Below, piece after piece: positions 152-6,150 of a DNA stretch of 6,150 nucleotides. The DNA is from a virus (Duplodnaviria; Heunggongvirae; Uroviricota; Caudoviricetes). The first letter of the stretch is position 1, and each line of letters starts with the position of its first letter. The stretch lies in the IMG/VR virus record IMGVR_UViG_2778261637_000011. One strand, 5' to 3'. The position numbers and the translations under genes were made by a program. The notes under the pieces are model-generated. The model was given only the letters and a program-made list of their open reading frames with translations. It made no database searches and was not told where the DNA came from.

Positions 152-751
152 ATGCGTAAATTATGTGCTGTTATTCTGTCCGCAGTAGTCTGGCTGGTTG
201 CTGCTGGTACGCCAGCGAGCGCAGCAGAGCATCAGTCCACACTAAGCGCCGGGTATCTTCAGACCCATACTGATATGCCCGGCAACGATGACCTGAAGGG
301 CATTAACGTGAAATACCGTTATGAATTTACGGACACGCTGGGGCTGGTGACGTCATTCAGTTATGCCAATGCCAAAGATGAGCAAAAAACGCATTACAGC
401 GATACCCGCTGGCATGAAGATTCAGTGCGTAACCGCTGGTTCAGCATGATGGCGGGGCCGTCTGTACGCGTGAATGAATGGTTCAGTGCTTATGCGATGG
501 CAGGTGTGGCTTACAGCCGTGTTTCGACTTTTTCCGGGGATTATCTCCGCGTAACTGACAGCAAGGGGAAAACGCACGATGTGCTGACCGGAAGTGATGA
601 CGGTCGCCACAGCAACACGTCTCTGGCGTGGGGGGCTGGCGTGCAGTTTAACCCGACCGAATCCGTGGCCATTGATATTGCTTATGAAGGCTCCGGCAGT
701 GGTGACTGGCGCACTGACGGTTTCATCGTGGGTGTCGGTTATAAATTCTGA
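152..751 (+). CDS. lom: Lom outer membrane protein (Ail/Lom family beta-barrel)
   Basis: 199-aa ORF. RBS gagagg (141-146) lies 5 nt before ATG 152. N-terminus looks like a signal peptide (hydrophobic core, ASA-AE cleavage motif). The C-terminal segment YEGSGSGDWRTDGFIVGVGYKF and internal motifs (KGINVKYRYE, SAYAMAGVA) match phage lambda Lom as I recall it. Ends in aromatic F, typical of outer membrane beta-barrels. Confidence 0.93.
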   Translation: MRKLCAVILSAVVWLVAAGTPASAAEHQSTLSAGYLQTHTDMPGNDDLKGINVKYRYEFTDTLGLVTSFSYANAKDEQKTHYSDTRWHEDSVRNRWFSMMAGPSVRVNEWFSAYAMAGVAYSRVSTFSGDYLRVTDSKGKTHDVLTGSDDGRHSNTSLAWGAGVQFNPTESVAIDIAYEGSGSGDWRTDGFIVGVGYKF

Positions 752-777: not shown

Positions 778-804
778 AGCCCGCCGGTTCAGGCGGGCTT
801 TTTT
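778..804 (+). terminator. Rho-independent terminator candidate after lom
   Basis: Seen directly: 8-bp stem agcccgcc (778-785) pairing with ggcgggct (792-799), loop ggttca, followed by a T run through 804. Confidence 0.6.
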
Positions 805-815
805 GTGGAGTGGAT

Positions 816-3143
816 ATGGCAGCAGTAAAAATCTCAGGTGTGCTGAAAGATTGTGCGGGAAAACCAATACAGAACTGCACTATTCAACTGAAGGCAAAGC
901 GTAACAGCACCACGGTACTGGTGAACACGGTGGCCTCTGAAAATCCGGATGAAGCCGGGCGTTACAGCATGGATGTTGAGCATGGCCAGTACAGCGTCAT
1001 CCTGCTGGTTGAAGGTTTTCCGCCTTCACATGCCGGGACCATTACCGTCTATGAAGGCTCCAGACCAGGTACGCTGAATGATTTTCTCGGTGCCATGACG
1101 GAAGATGATGTCATGCCGGAGGCATTGCGTCGTTTTGAGGCAATGGTGGAAGAAGTGGCACGCAACGCCGAAGCCGCCTCTCAGAGCGCAGCGGCGGCAA
1201 AGAAATCCGAAACTGCAGCGGCATCATCGAAGAACGCGGCGAAAACCTCAGAAACGAATGCAGCTAATAGTGCACAGGCGGCAGCGACCTCAAAGACTGC
1301 ATCGGCAAACTCCGCGACAGCAGCCAAAAAATCAGAAACCAACGCGAAAAATAGCGAGACAGCCGCAAAGACGAGCGAAACCAACGCAAAGTCCAGCCAG
1401 ACGGCAGCGAAAACCAGCGAAACGAATGCCAAAGCCAGTGAAACTGCGGCAAAAAACAGCCAGGTTGCAGCAGCCCAAAGCGAGAGCGCGGCAGCCGGTT
1501 CTGCGACTTCAGCAGCTGGATCAGCAACTGCTGCGGCTAACAGCCAGAAAGCTGCGAAGACGAGTGAAACTAACGCAAAGTCCAGCCAGACGGCAGCGAA
1601 GACCAGCGAAACGAATGCCAAAGCCAGTGAAACTGCGGCGAAAAGCAGTCAGGATGCAGCGGCCCAAAGCGAGAGTGCCGCAGCCAGTTCTGCAAGCGCG
1701 GCGGCTGCTTCTGCCACTGCATCAGCTAACAGTCAAAAAGCAGCAAAAACCAGTGAAACCAACGCAAAGGTGAGCGAAACAGCGGCTGCGAACTCAGCGA
1801 AAGCATCGGCAGCAAGCCAGGCTGCGGAGCCGTATAAATATGTCTTACAGCCGCTGCCTGATGTGTGGATACCATTTAACGATTCGCTGGATATGATTAC
1901 GGGCTTTTCGCCATCATATAAAAAAATTGTTATTGGTGACGATGAAATAACGATGCCTGGCGACAAGATTGTTAAGTTTAAACGTGCATCGAAAGCAACC
2001 TATATTAACAAATCTGGTGTGCTGACAGAGGCTGCCATTGACGAGCCACGATTTGAACGTGATGGCCTGCTTATTGAGGGGCAAAGAACAAACTACATGC
2101 TCAATTCGGAAAGCCCTGCCAGTTGGGGGCGATCGTCAAATATGGATGTGCCCGAAACAGGGACGGATAATTTTGGTTTTACCTATGGAAAGTTTGTCTG
2201 CAACGATTCTCTGATTGGGCAAACCTCAGCCATTAATATGGCATCAATTGCTGCAACAAAGTCAGTTGATGTCTCAGGCGATAATAAACACGTGACAACC
2301 TCATGTCGTTTTAAAACAGAACTGCAGGTAAGGTTGCGTATCCGGTTTGATAAATATGACGGTAGCGCAACAACTTTTCTTGGTGATGCGTATATTGATA
2401 CACAAACGCTTGAAATTAATATGACAGGCGGTGCTGCCTCAAGGATTACAGCGAGAGTCAGAAAGGACGAAGCTACCGGATGGATTTTTGCAGAGGCAAC
2501 AATTCAGGCAATTGATGGGGAGTTAAAAATAGGCTCTCAGATACAGTATTCTCCTAAGCAGAGCGGGGCAACCGTATCTGGTGACTATATTTATCTGGCC
2601 ACCCCACAAGTAGAAGATGGGCCTTGTGTATCATCTTTTATTATATCAGGAGCGACGGCGGCGACCCGCGCAAGCGATATAGTTACAGTTCCAATTAAGA
2701 ATAATCTTTATAATCTTCCTTTTACGGTTCTTTGTGAGGTACATAAGAACTGGTATAAAACGCCAAATGCAGCGCCACGTGTTTTTGATACCGGCGGTCA
2801 TCAAACCGGAGCGGCTATTATTCTTGGCTTCGGTCGTTCAACAGATTACGACGGATTTCCTTATTGCGATATTGGAGGAGCTAACAGACGGGTAAACGAA
2901 AACGCATCGCTTGAAAAAATGGTTATGGGGATGCGTGTAAAGTCAGAGCAGTCTACGTGCTCAGTAAGTAACGGGCATATATCCAGCGAAACAAAAACCA
3001 CATGGTCCTGTATTCAGAACACCGCAATTATCCGTATTGGAGGCCAGACTACAGCCGGGTTACGTCATTTATTTGGTCATGTCAGGAATTTCAGAATATG
3101 GCACAAGGCATTGACTGATGCTCAGGTGGGGGAGTCAATCTAA
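816..3143 (+). CDS. stf: Side tail fiber protein, mosaic: lambda Stf-like N-terminus, repetitive shaft, divergent C-terminal putative receptor-binding domain
   Basis: RBS ggag (807-810) lies 5 nt before ATG 816; the ORF track begins at an in-frame GTG at 810. The N-terminal ~110 aa (MAAVKISGVLKD...GQYSVIL...GFPPSHAGTITVYE...GTLNDFL...AMVEEVARNA) closely resemble lambda Stf from memory. Residues ~120-340 are AAKTSETNAK-type tail fiber repeats. The C-terminal ~430 aa are lower in GC and end in ...FGHVRNFRIWHKALTDAQVGESI, which resembles the terminal motif of LamG/ConA-like jelly-roll domains. Confidence 0.88.
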   Translation: MAAVKISGVLKDCAGKPIQNCTIQLKAKRNSTTVLVNTVASENPDEAGRYSMDVEHGQYSVILLVEGFPPSHAGTITVYEGSRPGTLNDFLGAMTEDDVMPEALRRFEAMVEEVARNAEAASQSAAAAKKSETAAASSKNAAKTSETNAANSAQAAATSKTASANSATAAKKSETNAKNSETAAKTSETNAKSSQTAAKTSETNAKASETAAKNSQVAAAQSESAAAGSATSAAGSATAAANSQKAAKTSETNAKSSQTAAKTSETNAKASETAAKSSQDAAAQSESAAASSASAAAASATASANSQKAAKTSETNAKVSETAAANSAKASAASQAAEPYKYVLQPLPDVWIPFNDSLDMITGFSPSYKKIVIGDDEITMPGDKIVKFKRASKATYINKSGVLTEAAIDEPRFERDGLLIEGQRTNYMLNSESPASWGRSSNMDVPETGTDNFGFTYGKFVCNDSLIGQTSAINMASIAATKSVDVSGDNKHVTTSCRFKTELQVRLRIRFDKYDGSATTFLGDAYIDTQTLEINMTGGAASRITARVRKDEATGWIFAEATIQAIDGELKIGSQIQYSPKQSGATVSGDYIYLATPQVEDGPCVSSFIISGATAATRASDIVTVPIKNNLYNLPFTVLCEVHKNWYKTPNAAPRVFDTGGHQTGAAIILGFGRSTDYDGFPYCDIGGANRRVNENASLEKMVMGMRVKSEQSTCSVSNGHISSETKTTWSCIQNTAIIRIGGQTTAGLRHLFGHVRNFRIWHKALTDAQVGESI
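1190..1800 (+). repeat. In-frame repetitive region inside stf, including a 189-bp tandem duplication (copy 1 1362-1550, copy 2 1551-1739, partial third copy from 1740)
   Basis: Seen directly: the string gtccagccagacggcagcga recurs at 1391 and 1580, a 189-bp period, with near-identical flanks. A nested periodicity of about 42 bp encodes TAAKTSETNAKxSx units. Confidence 0.8.
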
Positions 3144-3424
3144 TGAAAGATTTAACACTCAAATTTGCCGACAGGGCCGACTTTTCGGCCTTTATGGAGA
3201 GTATTGGCTATTATGATGACGAGTCGATGCAGGATGATATTCTTATTGACGTGATAGGTAACGTGTACAAAGAAACCGGAGAACTGACTGAAGATGGCGA
3301 ACCGGTATGTGTTAAGGAAGACGGATATTTTGTAAACGTGCGCATCATTAATGATTCGCAAATATCGTCATTATTCGATGAATACGTGGTTGCTGTTGAG
3401 CATCAACTTCGTGGCTGGATGTGA
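3143..3424 (+). CDS. Hypothetical small acidic protein (93 aa) translationally coupled to stf; possible fiber assembly factor or adaptor
   Basis: ATG at 3143-3145 overlaps the stf stop TAA (3141-3143) by 1 nt (TAATG). A G-rich Shine-Dalgarno-like stretch ggggag (3129-3134) lies upstream. The protein is D/E-rich with no obvious transmembrane segment. I do not recognise the family. Confidence 0.6.
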   Translation: MKDLTLKFADRADFSAFMESIGYYDDESMQDDILIDVIGNVYKETGELTEDGEPVCVKEDGYFVNVRIINDSQISSLFDEYVVAVEHQLRGWM

Positions 3425-3433
3425 GGAAGAAAA

Positions 3434-4474
3434 ATGGCTACATCGACAGTAATTCCTGATGACATCAAAACGCTAAAATCCGACGTTAGCAAATTAAAAA
3501 ACGATCAAGGAAGCTACGCAACAAAATTATATGTAGACAGCAAAGATGAAATCGTTGGTGACTGGTCTGCTTCATGGTATCAGCAGGTATTGCCAACTAG
3601 CGGAGCTATATTTGGGAGAAAACTCCGCTCAACTCACAGGACGGCAGGTGTTGAGGATGCGTATTGCGAACTATACCTCAAAAAATGGATAGACAGTCCA
3701 GGTAACGCAATGGCGCGCCTTAACCTGAACGATAACGGGACAAACATTTGCTGGGACTTTACCAACCTTTATGGCGGTACGATGATTTTTCCCGGTGACA
3801 GCGGATACCTCAAAATGGGTAACTGCCTTATGTCATACAGCAAGCGTGGAAGTAACGCGCTTATTAAATTTGATTACACCGACACATTACAGATCAAATA
3901 TGCCAATCATGGGTCAACCATGACATTAAACACACAGGGAACCGCTTATGCTGGTGTTACTGCTCAATTGTGGGGCAACTCCAGCCGTCCTGTTGTTTAT
4001 GAAGTCGGTGTTGATGGTGGCGCTTATATGTTCTATGCGCAGAAAAATACCGATAACACCTATATGTTAAGCGTTAATGGTGCATGTCATGCCACCGCAT
4101 TTAACCAGCATTCCGACCGGGATCTGAAAGACAACATTCAGGTGATCGATAATGCAACCGACCGCATCCGTAAAATGAACGGCTATACATACACGCTTAA
4201 AGAAAACGGTATGCCCTATGCTGGTGTCATTGCACAGGAAGCTCTGGAAGCAATCCCAGAAGCTGTAGGTTCCGCAATGAAATATCAGGACGGTGCAAGC
4301 GGATCGGAAGGTGAAGAAGGTGAACGTTATTACACAGTAGATTATTCTGGTGTTACTGGCTTGCTTGTTCAGGTAGCCAGAGAGTCAGACGACAGAATAA
4401 CAGCACTGGAAGAAGAAAATGCAGAATTAAAACAAAGATTATCTGCAATTGAGGCGACGCTTGCGTCTAAATAA
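3434..4474 (+). CDS. Tail fiber / tailspike-like protein with C-terminal peptidase S74 intramolecular chaperone domain
   Basis: RBS gagga (3423-3427) overlaps the upstream stop, 6 nt before ATG 3434. The C-terminal ~120 aa carry the hallmark S74 motifs: S227-DRDLKDNI, GVIAQEALEAIPEAV, YYTVDYSGVTGLLVQVARE and a terminal coiled-coil ITALEEENAELKQRLSAIE, as in endosialidase and T5 L-shaped fiber chaperone domains. Confidence 0.85.
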   Translation: MATSTVIPDDIKTLKSDVSKLKNDQGSYATKLYVDSKDEIVGDWSASWYQQVLPTSGAIFGRKLRSTHRTAGVEDAYCELYLKKWIDSPGNAMARLNLNDNGTNICWDFTNLYGGTMIFPGDSGYLKMGNCLMSYSKRGSNALIKFDYTDTLQIKYANHGSTMTLNTQGTAYAGVTAQLWGNSSRPVVYEVGVDGGAYMFYAQKNTDNTYMLSVNGACHATAFNQHSDRDLKDNIQVIDNATDRIRKMNGYTYTLKENGMPYAGVIAQEALEAIPEAVGSAMKYQDGASGSEGEEGERYYTVDYSGVTGLLVQVARESDDRITALEEENAELKQRLSAIEATLASK

Positions 4475-4480
4475 TATTAA

Positions 4481-4500
4481 GGGGCCGAGCGCCCCGTTTT
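4481..4500 (+). terminator. Rho-independent terminator candidate after the fiber module
   Basis: Seen directly: GC-only 5-bp stem ggggc (4481-4485) pairing with gcccc (4491-4495), loop cgagc, then tttt (4497-4500). It starts 7 nt after the stop codon at 4472-4474. Confidence 0.5.
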
Positions 4501-4516
4501 ATTGGGTAGGATGAAA

Positions 4517-4810
4517 ATGGATATAACACCTTTCCTTCATGCACTTTGTGCTGTGGCTGCGCAGGTACTGGTTGGTCTTTTTACCGGAAACTGGGCTTAC
4601 GGGGCGATAGCCGGTTGTACGTTCTTCATTGCTCGTGAACATACCCAGGCAGAATATCGCTGGATTGAAATGTTCGGGCATGGCAAGCGTATGAATATGC
4701 CGTGGTGGGGTGGTTTTGATCCGCGCGTGTGGGATGTGGCAAGCCTGATGGATTTTTCTGTGCCGGTGGTGGCTTGTCTGCTGGTCTGGCTGTTGGTTAA
4801 TCGTGGGTGA
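4517..4810 (+). CDS. Hypothetical small membrane protein (about 98-102 aa), candidate prophage accessory gene
   Basis: ORF is open from 4502 (TTG) to TGA at 4808-4810. The most plausible start is ATG 4517, with agga (4508-4511) 5 nt upstream; ATG 4511 is an alternative. Two hydrophobic stretches (LHALCAVAAQVLVGLFTGNWAYGAIAGCTFFIA and VPVVACLLVWLLV) suggest two transmembrane helices. The overlapping antisense ORF (4499-4984) has a His/Arg/Pro-rich composition that does not look protein-like. Confidence 0.5.
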   Translation: MDITPFLHALCAVAAQVLVGLFTGNWAYGAIAGCTFFIAREHTQAEYRWIEMFGHGKRMNMPWWGGFDPRVWDVASLMDFSVPVVACLLVWLLVNRG

Positions 4811-5273
4811 AAAAGGGAGTTGTAAACGCAACACAGGAAGAGGTGCCGCTTCAGGTTGCTGGGAATAAGCGCCGGGGTCTGTTAAATCATGCCAATACGC
4901 TAATCGAGCCAGATATTGAGTAGCCTGCAGTCCGTCATGGCGTAATCGTTTTGTGATATGCTGCACGCCGTATGCAAGGAGCATGATTGCGCTCGGCTGG
5001 CGAGCGCTCGATAGTGCTACTATTGAATGATTGCTAGTCTAGGCGGATTGTACTTAAGTAATATGACGGTTCAAGGCGTTTAATCTGAAACCAGCCACAT
5101 ATTAGCCTTTTCAAACATTTCCTGAACACTCAGGCTTACCTGCTCTTTCTCGTGCTTGCTGGCATTTGTGTTGAGCGCCGGTGAATACTCTTACTCAACA
5201 CTCCCAGAATTATATCTGTTGCATCAGGCAGACCATCAAAATTCTTTTGTCATAAACGAGTTCCACGAATAAT

Positions 5274-5355: not shown

Positions 5356-6150
5356 TTATAGTAAAGATGATATGCCAGCAAGAAATGGAGTAAATACTGT
5401 AATGTGTGCAGATACATTATTAATAAAGTCCTTATATGCTTCTTTAAAACAGCCGCTTTGGTGACTGGCTGCCAGTGCCTGTACATTATCTATAAGGTGT
5501 GATTCTGTCGCGCCATCAAAGTTTTTCGATTTTATTGCCTCAATCATTTCATTAAATATTGTGGGCTCATTATAATTTGTCGTAGTAGTTGCCGTAGCAC
5601 CTGAAGAATGTATATTGATACTAGAACCGGAAATTCCACTGACATGAATATTAGCTTCTTGTTTCATAAGAGGTAAACCATTCTCCATCTTGTATAGGTC
5701 ACTATCTTGTAGCATCTGCAATGTGATACGTACTGCTGCTAATAGTTGTTCTTGCTTTTTGAATAAGGAACACATCTGTTCTACAGACCAAAGCTGAACT
5801 GCATTTTCTTCGCATGTTTTTTTAGCTATATTTGGCACTTCCGAATCATAATTACCATAAACCCAAGTGTCCTTGAATCTTTCGATAATAGCTGTCAACG
5901 TTGGAAATTTACTGAAATCACTATTAATGGATAGTAACTCATCAGACATATAAAGTGCCATATCTCTGCCTTCCGCATATACTGCTTCCACTTTATTCCG
6001 TGTTGCAAATGGTATTCTTGAAATAAAACGAAAATCCTCTTCATTTTTTAAATGGACCCAGTCTTTATCAAAACGGCTAAATTCGTACCCTATCGATAAC
6101 AGTCTACTTATATATTGGGCTACTGATTCCAAATCTTTTCTTATGTCCAA
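5356..6150 (-). CDS. Hypothetical protein, AT-rich cargo gene, 5'-truncated by the window edge (C-terminal 264 aa visible)
   Basis: A 795-nt open frame on the minus strand with stop TAA at 5356-5358 (tta on +). The M at 6150 in the ORF track is a TTG at the window edge, so the true start is beyond 6150. Sampled 60-nt lines give about 32-42% G+C versus about 63% in lom. I recognise no confident family from the visible residues. Confidence 0.6.
   Translation of the reverse strand: MDIRKDLESVAQYISRLLSIGYEFSRFDKDWVHLKNEEDFRFISRIPFATRNKVEAVYAEGRDMALYMSDELLSINSDFSKFPTLTAIIERFKDTWVYGNYDSEVPNIAKKTCEENAVQLWSVEQMCSLFKKQEQLLAAVRITLQMLQDSDLYKMENGLPLMKQEANIHVSGISGSSINIHSSGATATTTTNYNEPTIFNEMIEAIKSKNFDGATESHLIDNVQALAASHQSGCFKEAYKDFINNVSAHITVFTPFLAGISSLL

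What the first reader, a model, noticed from the sequence alone, without database searches (positions are those of the whole stretch)
816..3143. Mosaic side tail fiber: lambda-like N-terminal anchor fused to a divergent, lower-GC C-terminal putative receptor-binding domain
The first ~110 residues track lambda Stf closely, which fits the virion-attachment part. The last ~430 residues come from DNA visibly lower in G+C (sampled lines about 33-47%, versus about 63% in lom) and end in a motif (VRNFRIWHKALTDAQV) reminiscent of LamG/ConA-like lectin folds. That pattern suggests horizontal swapping of the receptor-binding module and a host range different from lambda.
Basis: partly seen in the sequence, partly recalled or inferred. 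Interest (0 to 1): 0.55.

Follow-up and report, generated by a model that had tools for sequence, protein, structure and literature searches.

The report
Two-part prophage side tail fibre cassette
This is an ordinary, very common E. coli prophage side tail fibre: a lambda-type anchor and shaft joined to a swapped-in lectin-like head, and probably only the inner half of a two-protein fibre, because a second fibre gene travels with it.

Summary

The low-GC block runs to nt 4474 and also holds a 93-aa protein and a 346-aa second fibre with an S74 chaperone domain. This trio recurs in lambdoid, T1-like, Dhillonvirus, T5-like and P2-like phages, and the first two parts also in rV5-like phages. It matches IrisVonRoten Gp22-Gp23-Gp24, published in 2025 as a proximal fibre with a "galectin-like" end carrying a distal receptor-binding fibre. 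No receptor is known. It is a new member of a known kind.

The parts
816..3143 (+). stf: side tail fibre gene, 775 codons plus stop. I read it as the proximal subunit of a two-protein fibre.
   Evidence: ORF list. Full-length match to phrog_1419 'tail protein', 1402.7 bits. 99.7% DNA identity to E. coli MS 69-1 and others, downstream of gpJ and lom.
816..1100 (+). Residues 1-95: lambda-type StfN collar domain, the virion anchor.
   Evidence: PF08400 at E 1e-65. PDB 9e7m_Ta, lambda tail fiber protein, at E 1e-47. 86% identity to lambda. In Ur-lambda, StfN 1-91 forms a dodecameric collar at the gpV/gpM junction (PMC12617516).
1101..1826 (+). Residues 96-337: linker plus Ala/Ser/Thr/Lys-rich repeat shaft, inferred to be a trimeric alpha-helical coiled coil. 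Also a recombination and indel hot-spot.
   Evidence: 47% identity to the lambda Stf coiled-coil region. Matches the DT57C LtfA helical-bundle region 41-205 (8hqz_d, E 2e-5; PMC10713586). Tandem repeats of period 42 and 189 at 1316-1769. Composition A 35%, S 19%, T 11%. 48-bp in-frame indel at nt 1811 relative to MS 69-1. Phage matches begin or end inside this region.
1827..3140 (+). Residues 338-775: C-terminal all-beta, lectin-like module (ConA-like sandwiches) at 44% G+C.
2070..2672 (+). Residues 419-619: first sandwich, the 'GTA head spike fiber' domain. Its core is variable.
   Evidence: NCBIfam NF048003 at E 3.2e-13, 50.6 bits against a cut-off of 36. Only 21-28% mean identity among distant homologues. 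Swapped independently of the second domain in loci L049, L052 and L055.
2673..3140 (+). Residues 620-775: second sandwich, Laminin_G_3-like, ending in the conserved motif HLFGHVRNFRIWHKALTDAQV.
   Evidence: Pfam Laminin_G_3 at E 0.006, 17.2 bits, below the gathering score of 27.6, on fragment residues 380-432. 36 of 56 homologues hit it, best E 1.9e-11. Swapped independently in locus L079.
3143..3424 (+). orf93: small accessory protein always encoded directly after the lectin-like module. Function unknown; possibly an adaptor or assembly factor.
3434..4474 (+). orf346: second (distal) fibre protein. N-terminal docking-type motif in residues 1-37 (nt 3434-3544), a fibre tip, and a Peptidase_S74 intramolecular chaperone at residues 227-278 (nt 4112-4267).
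   Evidence: PF13884 at E 2.6e-14. phrog_4563 at 731 bits. The IMC region matches phage S16 6f45. The motif M-x-T-x-T-x-IP-x-DI-x-x-LK is shared with tinuso gp66, KarlBarth gp30, AKFV33 orf135, a P2-like ORF and IrisVonRoten Gp24. In the 19 phage records I cross-checked, the motif lies directly after the orf93 homologue.
4481..4495 (+). Terminator-like GC hairpin right after orf346, at the end of the low-GC cassette.
   Evidence: Consensus scan. G+C returns to about 50% downstream.
152..751 (+). lom (Ail/Lom outer-membrane protein), the upstream neighbour as in lambda. Context only.
   Evidence: PF06316 at E 9e-127. Same J-lom-stf gene order as lambda.

Best explanation
The gene encodes the proximal subunit of a two-protein side tail fibre of a lambdoid E. 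coli prophage.

Shown or nearly shown: residues 1-95 are the lambda StfN collar domain that anchors fibres at the tail tube/tip junction. Residues ~100-337 are a lambda/T5-type coiled-coil shaft. Residues 338-775 fold into lectin-like (ConA superfamily) beta-sandwiches, the first related to the capsule-binding head spike fibre of the Rhodobacter gene transfer agent and the second Laminin_G_3-like.

Inferred: these lectin-like heads hang off the end of the trimeric shaft and bind a surface glycan weakly and multivalently. The 346-aa fibre encoded two genes downstream docks at this end through its conserved N-terminal ~35-residue motif, with or via the 93-aa protein, and supplies a second, probably dominant, receptor-binding tip that matures by S74 autoproteolysis.

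The whole 2.65-kb block (lectin module, orf93, distal fibre) is a low-GC cassette. It is moved between unrelated phages by recombination in the repetitive shaft-coding DNA. That gives this prophage a primary-receptor specificity different from the gp37-like, OmpC-binding tip of lambda.
For: Anchor: and PMC12617516.

Shaft: and PMC10713586.

Variation: cores vary while framework segments are conserved, as expected for binding domains. The two domains are swapped independently.

Cassette: the low-GC block spans 1827-4474 and a hairpin follows at 4481-4495. Nt 1350-4841 are 97% identical in phage Tritos, and 1848-4402 are 95% identical in the 60-kb phage ESCO3, which has the genome size of the virulent Nonagvirus group.

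Linkage: orf93 follows the module in every locus where it could be checked. The motif-bearing second fibre follows orf93 in the 19 phage records I cross-checked, and all 59 motif hits are in phage groups that carry the module. The same trio occurs in T1-like, Dhillonvirus, T5-like and P2-like contexts with quite different distal tips.

Published homologue: IrisVonRoten Gp22 is 49.7% identical over 650 aa, Gp23 is an orf93 homologue at 39%, and Gp24 carries the motif. PMC11990801 describes Gp24 as attached to the proximal fibre Gp22, whose C-terminal 'galectin-like domain' could be an additional RBD.
Against: No binding, attachment or virion-composition data exist for this protein or any close homologue. 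The attachment of the distal fibre rests on synteny, a shared motif and a published AlphaFold-Multimer model that I could not inspect.

Many loci keep the module and an orf93 homologue (at 41-54% identity) but have no second fibre (ev017, phage 21). So the module can be the end of a fibre on its own.

I could predict only a monomer, so the arrangement on the trimer is unknown.

Several polar residues are invariant (R73, E82, N87, Q259, E261, S268, R279 of the 436-aa fragment). They could mark a catalytic or metal site rather than a framework.
Confidence: 0.6

Rival explanations
1. The LamG-like module is the fibre's sole and decisive receptor-binding domain. orf346 is an independent fibre that attaches elsewhere on the tail.
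For: The fold and its homology to a capsule-binding protein. The variable domain cores. Loci in which the module ends the fibre and no second fibre follows.
Against: Across phages with unrelated tails (lambda-, T1-, T5- and P2-like), the only components shared with the motif-bearing second fibre are this module and orf93. So its docking partner is most simply one of them. The literature places the IrisVonRoten distal fibre on the homologous proximal fibre.
Confidence: 0.17
2. The module is purely architectural. It is a hub that holds the distal fibre, as the ConA-like wedge protein gp46 of phage Pa193 holds a trimeric tail fibre through one loop, and it has no receptor binding of its own.
Against: Only 13% identity to gp46, so the similarity is at fold level only. 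The domain cores are highly variable and are exchanged independently, which a pure scaffold would not need. The module persists where there is no second fibre.
Confidence: 0.13
3. The module is an enzyme of the ConA-like glucanase/lyase type (as in GH16 or glucuronan lyase) that cuts or modifies surface polysaccharide.
Confidence: 0.05
4. The locus is a decaying remnant of a defective prophage and the fibre is not made.
For: RefSeq annotates the near-identical gene in MS 69-1 as a split pseudogene. A frameshifted DinI-like gene lies nearby.
Against: The ORF is intact here, and also in MS 69-1 (791 aa, no frameshift). All cassette genes are intact. The cassette and the C-terminal half of the gene are 97% identical in phage genome records deposited as isolated phages: Tritos, 2G7b, HannyBb and PhiR63_1.
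Confidence: 0.05

Closest known systems
Lateral tail fibre of Tequintavirus IrisVonRoten (Bas32): Gp22 proximal fibre, Gp23, and Gp24 T-shaped distal fibre (Humolli et al. 2025, PMC11990801)
   Same: Gp22 is 49.7% identical to this Stf over 650 aa, covering shaft plus lectin-like module. Gp23 is 39% identical to orf93. Gp24 starts with the same MxTxTxIPxDIxxLK motif. The gene order is the same. The published model has a distal RBP attached to the proximal fibre, whose C-terminal 'galectin-like' domain may be an extra RBD.
   Different: The virion anchor differs: a T5 pb1/LtfA-type N-terminus there, a lambda StfN collar here. The distal fibre differs: a 574-aa dual-RBD T-shaped fibre there, a 346-aa single-tip fibre with an S74 chaperone here. 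IrisVonRoten is a virulent T5-like phage, whereas this is a temperate lambdoid prophage.
Bacteriophage lambda (Ur-lambda) side tail fibre Stf plus Tfa
   Same: Genome position after J and lom. The collar domain is 86% identical. Homologous coiled-coil shaft.
   Different: The lambda distal half (hinge, gp37-like six-stranded coiled coil, OmpC-binding tip) and its Tfa chaperone are absent. They are replaced by the lectin-like module, orf93 and a second fibre.
RcGTA head spike fibre (rcc01080; NCBIfam NF048003 'phage head spike fiber domain')
   Same: Residues 419-619 match the domain model above its cut-off. The RcGTA protein binds capsular polysaccharide and is modelled as a lectin-like two-domain beta protein (PMC10218006).
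   Different: There it sits on capsid vertices of an alphaproteobacterial gene transfer agent and is anchored by a 10-residue N-terminus. Here it is the C-terminal end of a tail fibre. Sequence similarity is remote.
Branched lateral tail fibres of DT57C (LtfA/LtfB) and phiEco32 (gp14/gp15)
   Same: The concept is the same: a proximal fibre carries a second receptor-binding fibre, and the distal proteins end in S74 chaperones. The body of AKFV33 orf135 resembles LtfB and gp15.
   Different: The docking elements are unrelated. The LtfB/gp15 N-terminus (MSRPLMPKSG...) and the LtfA 223-471 region show no similarity to the motif or to the lectin-like module. LtfA itself ends in an S74 tip, and no orf93-like gene is present.
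ConA-like lectin/glucanase superfamily (Pfam Laminin_G_3; LamG, pentraxin, CBM40, clostridial neurotoxin Hc-N, AbnA domain 4)
   Different: Identity is only 8-17%. This protein on its own is below the Pfam gathering score. Its ligand and any Ca2+ site are unknown.

Membership tests
Lambda-type side tail fibre (Stf) | N-terminal collar/anchor domain (Pfam PF08400 phage_tail_N; StfN 1-91) | tested here: met
   220 bits against a cut-off of 26.6. 9e7m at E 1e-47. 86% identity over residues 1-95.
Lambda-type side tail fibre (Stf) | Proximal coiled-coil shaft homologous to lambda Stf 102-393 | tested here: met
   58% identity over 341 aligned residues and 47% over residues 121-337. The region is low-complexity, so homology is likely but the identity value is inflated.
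Lambda-type side tail fibre (Stf) | gp37-like distal tip (lambda orf-314 part) with a downstream Tfa (Caudo_TAP) chaperone | tested here: not met
   No BLASTP hit to orf-314. No Caudo_TAP or other Tfa family among the window's proteins.
Pfam Laminin_G_3 / ConA-like lectin-glucanase superfamily | Profile match at or above the Pfam gathering score | tested here: not met
   17.2 bits against 27.6, E 0.006, covering only the last third of the profile. However, 36 of 56 homologues match at E of 0.01 or better, best 1.9e-11.
Pfam Laminin_G_3 / ConA-like lectin-glucanase superfamily | ConA-like beta-sandwich (jelly-roll) fold | tested here: met
Pfam Laminin_G_3 / ConA-like lectin-glucanase superfamily | Carbohydrate (or Ca2+-dependent ligand) binding | not testable with these tools
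   Needs a glycan array, LPS binding assay or co-crystal. Supported only indirectly, through the capsule-binding RcGTA homologue.
NCBIfam NF048003 GTA_spike_fiber domain | Profile match above the curated cut-off | tested here: met
   50.6 bits against 36, E 3.2e-13, residues 419-619 over profile positions 1-181 of 182.
IrisVonRoten-type two-protein lateral fibre (proximal fibre, small protein, distal RBP) | Proximal fibre ending in the homologous lectin-like module | tested here: met
   49.7% identity over 650 aa to Gp22, E 0.
IrisVonRoten-type two-protein lateral fibre (proximal fibre, small protein, distal RBP) | orf93-family gene immediately downstream | tested here: met
   The orf93 start codon (3143-3145) overlaps the stf stop codon (3141-3143) by one base. 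39% identical to Gp23. The linkage holds in all loci that could be checked.
IrisVonRoten-type two-protein lateral fibre (proximal fibre, small protein, distal RBP) | Distal fibre gene with the conserved N-terminal motif | tested here: met
   orf346 begins MATSTVIPDDIKTLK and Gp24 begins MVTKTVIPTDITKLK. The motif occurs only next to orf93 homologues in the phage collection.
IrisVonRoten-type two-protein lateral fibre (proximal fibre, small protein, distal RBP) | Physical attachment of the distal fibre to the proximal fibre | not testable with these tools
The literature support is an AlphaFold-Multimer model.
DT57C LtfA/LtfB and phiEco32 gp14/gp15 branched fibre | LtfB/gp15-type N-terminal adaptor and LtfA(223-471)/gp14-type docking region | tested here: not met
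   No BLASTP similarity between these regions and Stf, orf93 or the orf346 N-terminus.
Peptidase_S74 intramolecular-chaperone fibres (for orf346) | C-terminal PF13884 domain | tested here: met
   53.7 bits against 22, residues 227-278. The region matches S16 gp37 6f45. Autocleavage itself was not tested.

The most novel reading that the evidence does not exclude
The lectin-like module, the orf93-family protein and the ~35-residue N-terminal motif MxTxTxIPxDIxxLK form a portable, phage-family-independent plug-and-socket. It would allow almost any fibre tip (S74-chaperoned T5-like tips, P2 H-like tips with a Tfa, T-shaped dual-RBD fibres) to be mounted on the lateral fibre of lambdoid, T1-like, Dhillonvirus, T5-like and P2-like phages, and possibly rV5-like ones, with orf93 as the previously unrecognised adaptor or assembly factor. 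The literature I could search describes one instance (IrisVonRoten) but neither its generality nor any role for the small protein.
Probability: 0.45. Interest if true: 0.5.

Novelty: new member of a known kind. Interest (0 to 1): 0.3.

Why it matters
Modular exchange of tail-fibre ends is textbook phage biology, and this gene is present, identical or nearly so, in many sequenced E. coli genomes and in several isolated phages. So the finding itself changes little.

It has some practical value. Lambda Stf chimeras are being engineered to retarget DNA-delivery particles (PMC11338833). A natural lambda-anchored fibre that ends in a lectin-like head and carries a second exchangeable fibre shows a fusion point (about residue 337) and a possible way to mount two specificities on one lambda-type fibre.

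The cross-family conservation of the 93-aa protein and the docking motif is a clean, testable lead for anyone studying how branched fibres assemble.

Tried and rejected
1. A fused-chain AF2 prediction (Stf C-terminus, linker, orf93, linker, orf346 residues 1-60, with paired rows from 16 loci) meant to test docking.

3. Whether the docking system is the published DT57C LtfA/LtfB or phiEco32 gp14/gp15 one. Rejected: no sequence similarity in the relevant regions.

4. No hit in this protein. It appears only in homologues with P2-type N-termini.

5. The Gifsy-1 Stf paper and the Eligo lambda-chimera paper. Both concern lambda-type or other C-termini and say nothing about this module.

6. A literature search for ConA-like or LamG tail-fibre domains in coliphages. 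Nothing specific to this family turned up.

7. The pseudogene reading suggested by the RefSeq split annotation. Rejected: the MS 69-1 copy is an intact 791-aa ORF.

8. Promoter scan. Not above the shuffled expectation (8 sites against 6.8 ± 2.0).
Full report
WHAT IS THERE. The window is the tail-fibre end of a lambdoid prophage of E. coli. It is 99.6-99.7% identical over its full length to the best-matching chromosomes, MS 69-1 and others, and 51 complete genomes hold at least 80% of it. In MS 69-1 it lies after the tape-measure, L, K, I and J genes and directly next to sitABCD. The gene order in the window is: the 3' end of J; lom (152-751); stf (816-3143); a 93-aa ORF (3143-3424); a 346-aa ORF (3434-4474); a roughly 100-aa membrane-like ORF (to 4810); a DinI-like pseudogene; and a 264-aa ORF on the minus strand.

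CHECKING THE OBSERVATION. The ORF is intact at 775 aa. Its N-terminus is the lambda Stf anchor: PF08400 at E 1e-65, 93 residues matching the solved lambda Stf collar 9e7m at E 1e-47, and 86% identity over residues 1-95. Similarity to lambda does not stop at 110 aa. It continues at 47% identity through an Ala/Ser/Thr/Lys-rich repeat region to about residue 337. In Ur-lambda the equivalent region is the proximal trimeric coiled coil (PMC12617516). The same stretch also matches the helical-bundle region of DT57C LtfA (PMC10713586).

At residue 338 (nt 1827) all similarity to lambda ends, with no hit to orf-314, and G+C falls from 54.9% to 44.2% (z = 5.1), with GC3 falling from 50% to 38%.

The low-GC block is also larger than the gene. 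It runs through both downstream ORFs to nt 4474 (43.9%) and is followed by a GC hairpin at 4481-4495 and a return to about 50% G+C.

THE C-TERMINAL MODULE. Pfam finds nothing at threshold in the full protein. NCBIfam places a 'phage head spike fiber' domain (NF048003) on residues 419-619, above its cut-off.

The domain limits I give rest on the profile matches and the pattern of secondary structure, not on inspection of coordinates. The homologous RcGTA head spike fibre binds capsular polysaccharide (PMC10218006). That is the only functional anchor for glycan binding.

HOW COMMON AND HOW MOBILE. The full-length architecture is an established family (phrog_1419, 1402.7 bits end to end). Proteins with an identical C-terminal part are abundant in E. 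coli. The module has 2059 representative homologues at 50% clustering, and it was C-terminal in the hits I examined. It occurs in 219 phage records from lambdoid, Drexlerviridae, Dhillonvirus, Nonagvirus, T5-like and rV5-like phages, and it is also fused to P2-type fibre N-termini.

Phage matches to the window begin or end inside the repeat-coding DNA. Tritos matches from nt 1350 onward, and PhiR47_1 matches up to nt 1706. A 48-bp in-frame indel sits at nt 1811. The repetitive shaft DNA is therefore the likely recombination joint.

Within the module, the two domain cores are exchanged independently between alleles. In distant homologues the cores are the variable parts (19-28% identity), while the first ~100 residues, the inter-domain segment and the C-terminal motif are conserved (45-67%).

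An orf93 homologue starts 0-14 nt after the fibre stop codon in every one of the IMG/VR loci that has room downstream. The same is true in ev017, tinuso, KarlBarth, AKFV33, JeffSchatz, a P2-like prophage and IrisVonRoten.

In about two thirds of loci a second fibre gene follows. Its body varies widely: a 346-aa S74 type, a 234-aa type, a P2 H-like tip with its own Caudo_TAP, a phiEco32 gp15-like body, and a T-shaped dual-RBD fibre. Its first ~35 residues, however, share the motif M-x-T-x-T-x-IP-x-DI-x-x-LK.

In the phage collection this motif was found in 59 records, all from phage groups that carry the module. In the 19 records I cross-checked by coordinates it lies directly after the orf93 homologue. 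These phages have otherwise unrelated tails. The simplest inference is therefore that the motif docks on the lectin-like module and/or orf93.

This agrees with the one published description I found. In IrisVonRoten (Gp22 is 49.7% identical to this Stf over 650 aa), the distal T-shaped fibre Gp24 is modelled as attached to the proximal fibre Gp22. [quoted passage not shown]

The counter-evidence is that some lambdoid phages (ev017, phage 21) keep the module and a diverged orf93 but have no second fibre. The module must therefore be able to function as a fibre end by itself.

MECHANISM, WITH CONFIDENCE LEVELS. Shown by strong homology: the collar anchor, the coiled-coil shaft and the lectin-like fold. 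Inferred: glycan binding by the heads (about 0.6), docking of orf346 at the Stf end (about 0.65), and orf93 as adaptor or assembly factor (open). The orf93 fold gave no informative neighbour, and a complex prediction could not be run. Rivals are that the module is the sole RBD, that it is a pure hub, that it is an enzyme, or that the locus is a dead remnant. They are weighed in their own section.

COMPARISON AND VERDICT. The protein is a member of the lambda Stf family only for its anchor and shaft. The lambda tip-plus-Tfa feature was tested and is not met. It belongs structurally to the ConA-like superfamily and passes the NF048003 domain model. The cassette matches the IrisVonRoten-type two-protein fibre on every sequence-level criterion. 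It is not the DT57C/phiEco32 branching system. The finding is a correct reading of an ordinary, widespread mosaic fibre, and I class it as a new member of a known kind. The only modestly novel lead is the generality of the module, orf93 and motif cassette across phage families.

Noticed in passing
window 1811 (within stf): Relative to E. coli MS 69-1 and the other closest genomes, the window lacks 48 bp (16 aa, TAAKASEDAAREYASQ) just before the shaft/module junction. RefSeq annotates the MS 69-1 gene as a partial pseudogene plus a separate 'head spike fiber' CDS, yet the ORF there is intact (791 aa). The split looks like an annotation artefact.
   Followed up: yes
window 5356-6150, minus strand: A 264-aa ORF at 35.6% G+C (GC3 27.5%) at the prophage edge next to sitABCD. 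No Pfam, PHROG or NCBIfam family. Only a weak hit to the PADLOC candidate PDC-M14B (E 0.0017). It could be a moron or a defence gene.
   Followed up: partly
window about 5080-5266, minus strand (L001 11128-11314): RefSeq annotates a frameshifted DinI-like pseudogene here in the near-identical MS 69-1 locus.
   Followed up: no
L004 (phage ev017) 4987-7311; L001 12671-16120: The sitABCD iron/manganese transporter genes lie immediately beyond the prophage end in E. coli, and sitD, sitC and a third ABC-transporter gene are annotated inside the deposited genome of phage ev017. Either the phage carries sit as cargo or the record includes flanking host DNA.
   Followed up: no
window 1105-1773 (+), 1181-1621 (-), 1264-1527 (-): Long ORFs in other frames and on the opposite strand across the repeat region (146-222 aa, Ala/Arg/Pro-rich). 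They look like by-products of the GC-rich Ala/Ser/Thr codon repeats. Lambda's annotated antisense orf206b inside orf-401 is the same phenomenon.
   Followed up: partly
window 778-799: A strong terminator-like hairpin (8-bp stem, 7 G-C pairs, T-run) sits between lom and the stf start. Transcription of stf presumably depends on late-gene antitermination.
   Followed up: no
L049, L052, L055 versus L079 (IMG/VR loci); window 2070-3140: Alleles of the lectin-like module are themselves mosaics. Some share the window's flanks and second domain but have a different first-domain core. Others share the first domain but have a different second domain.
   Followed up: partly
L059-L066, L079-L089 versus L046-L058: The orf93 allele type tracks presence of the second fibre rather than the allele of the lectin module. 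Window-type orf93 (88-100% identity) goes with a second fibre even when the module is only 76-78% identical. The 41% and 54% orf93 alleles occur where no second fibre follows.
   Followed up: partly
window 4517-4810 (+): A small hydrophobic protein (phrog_1443, unknown function) follows the fibre cassette. It is conserved at 81-100% identity even in loci with a different cassette or no second fibre, so it belongs to the lambdoid backbone rather than to the cassette.
   Followed up: partly
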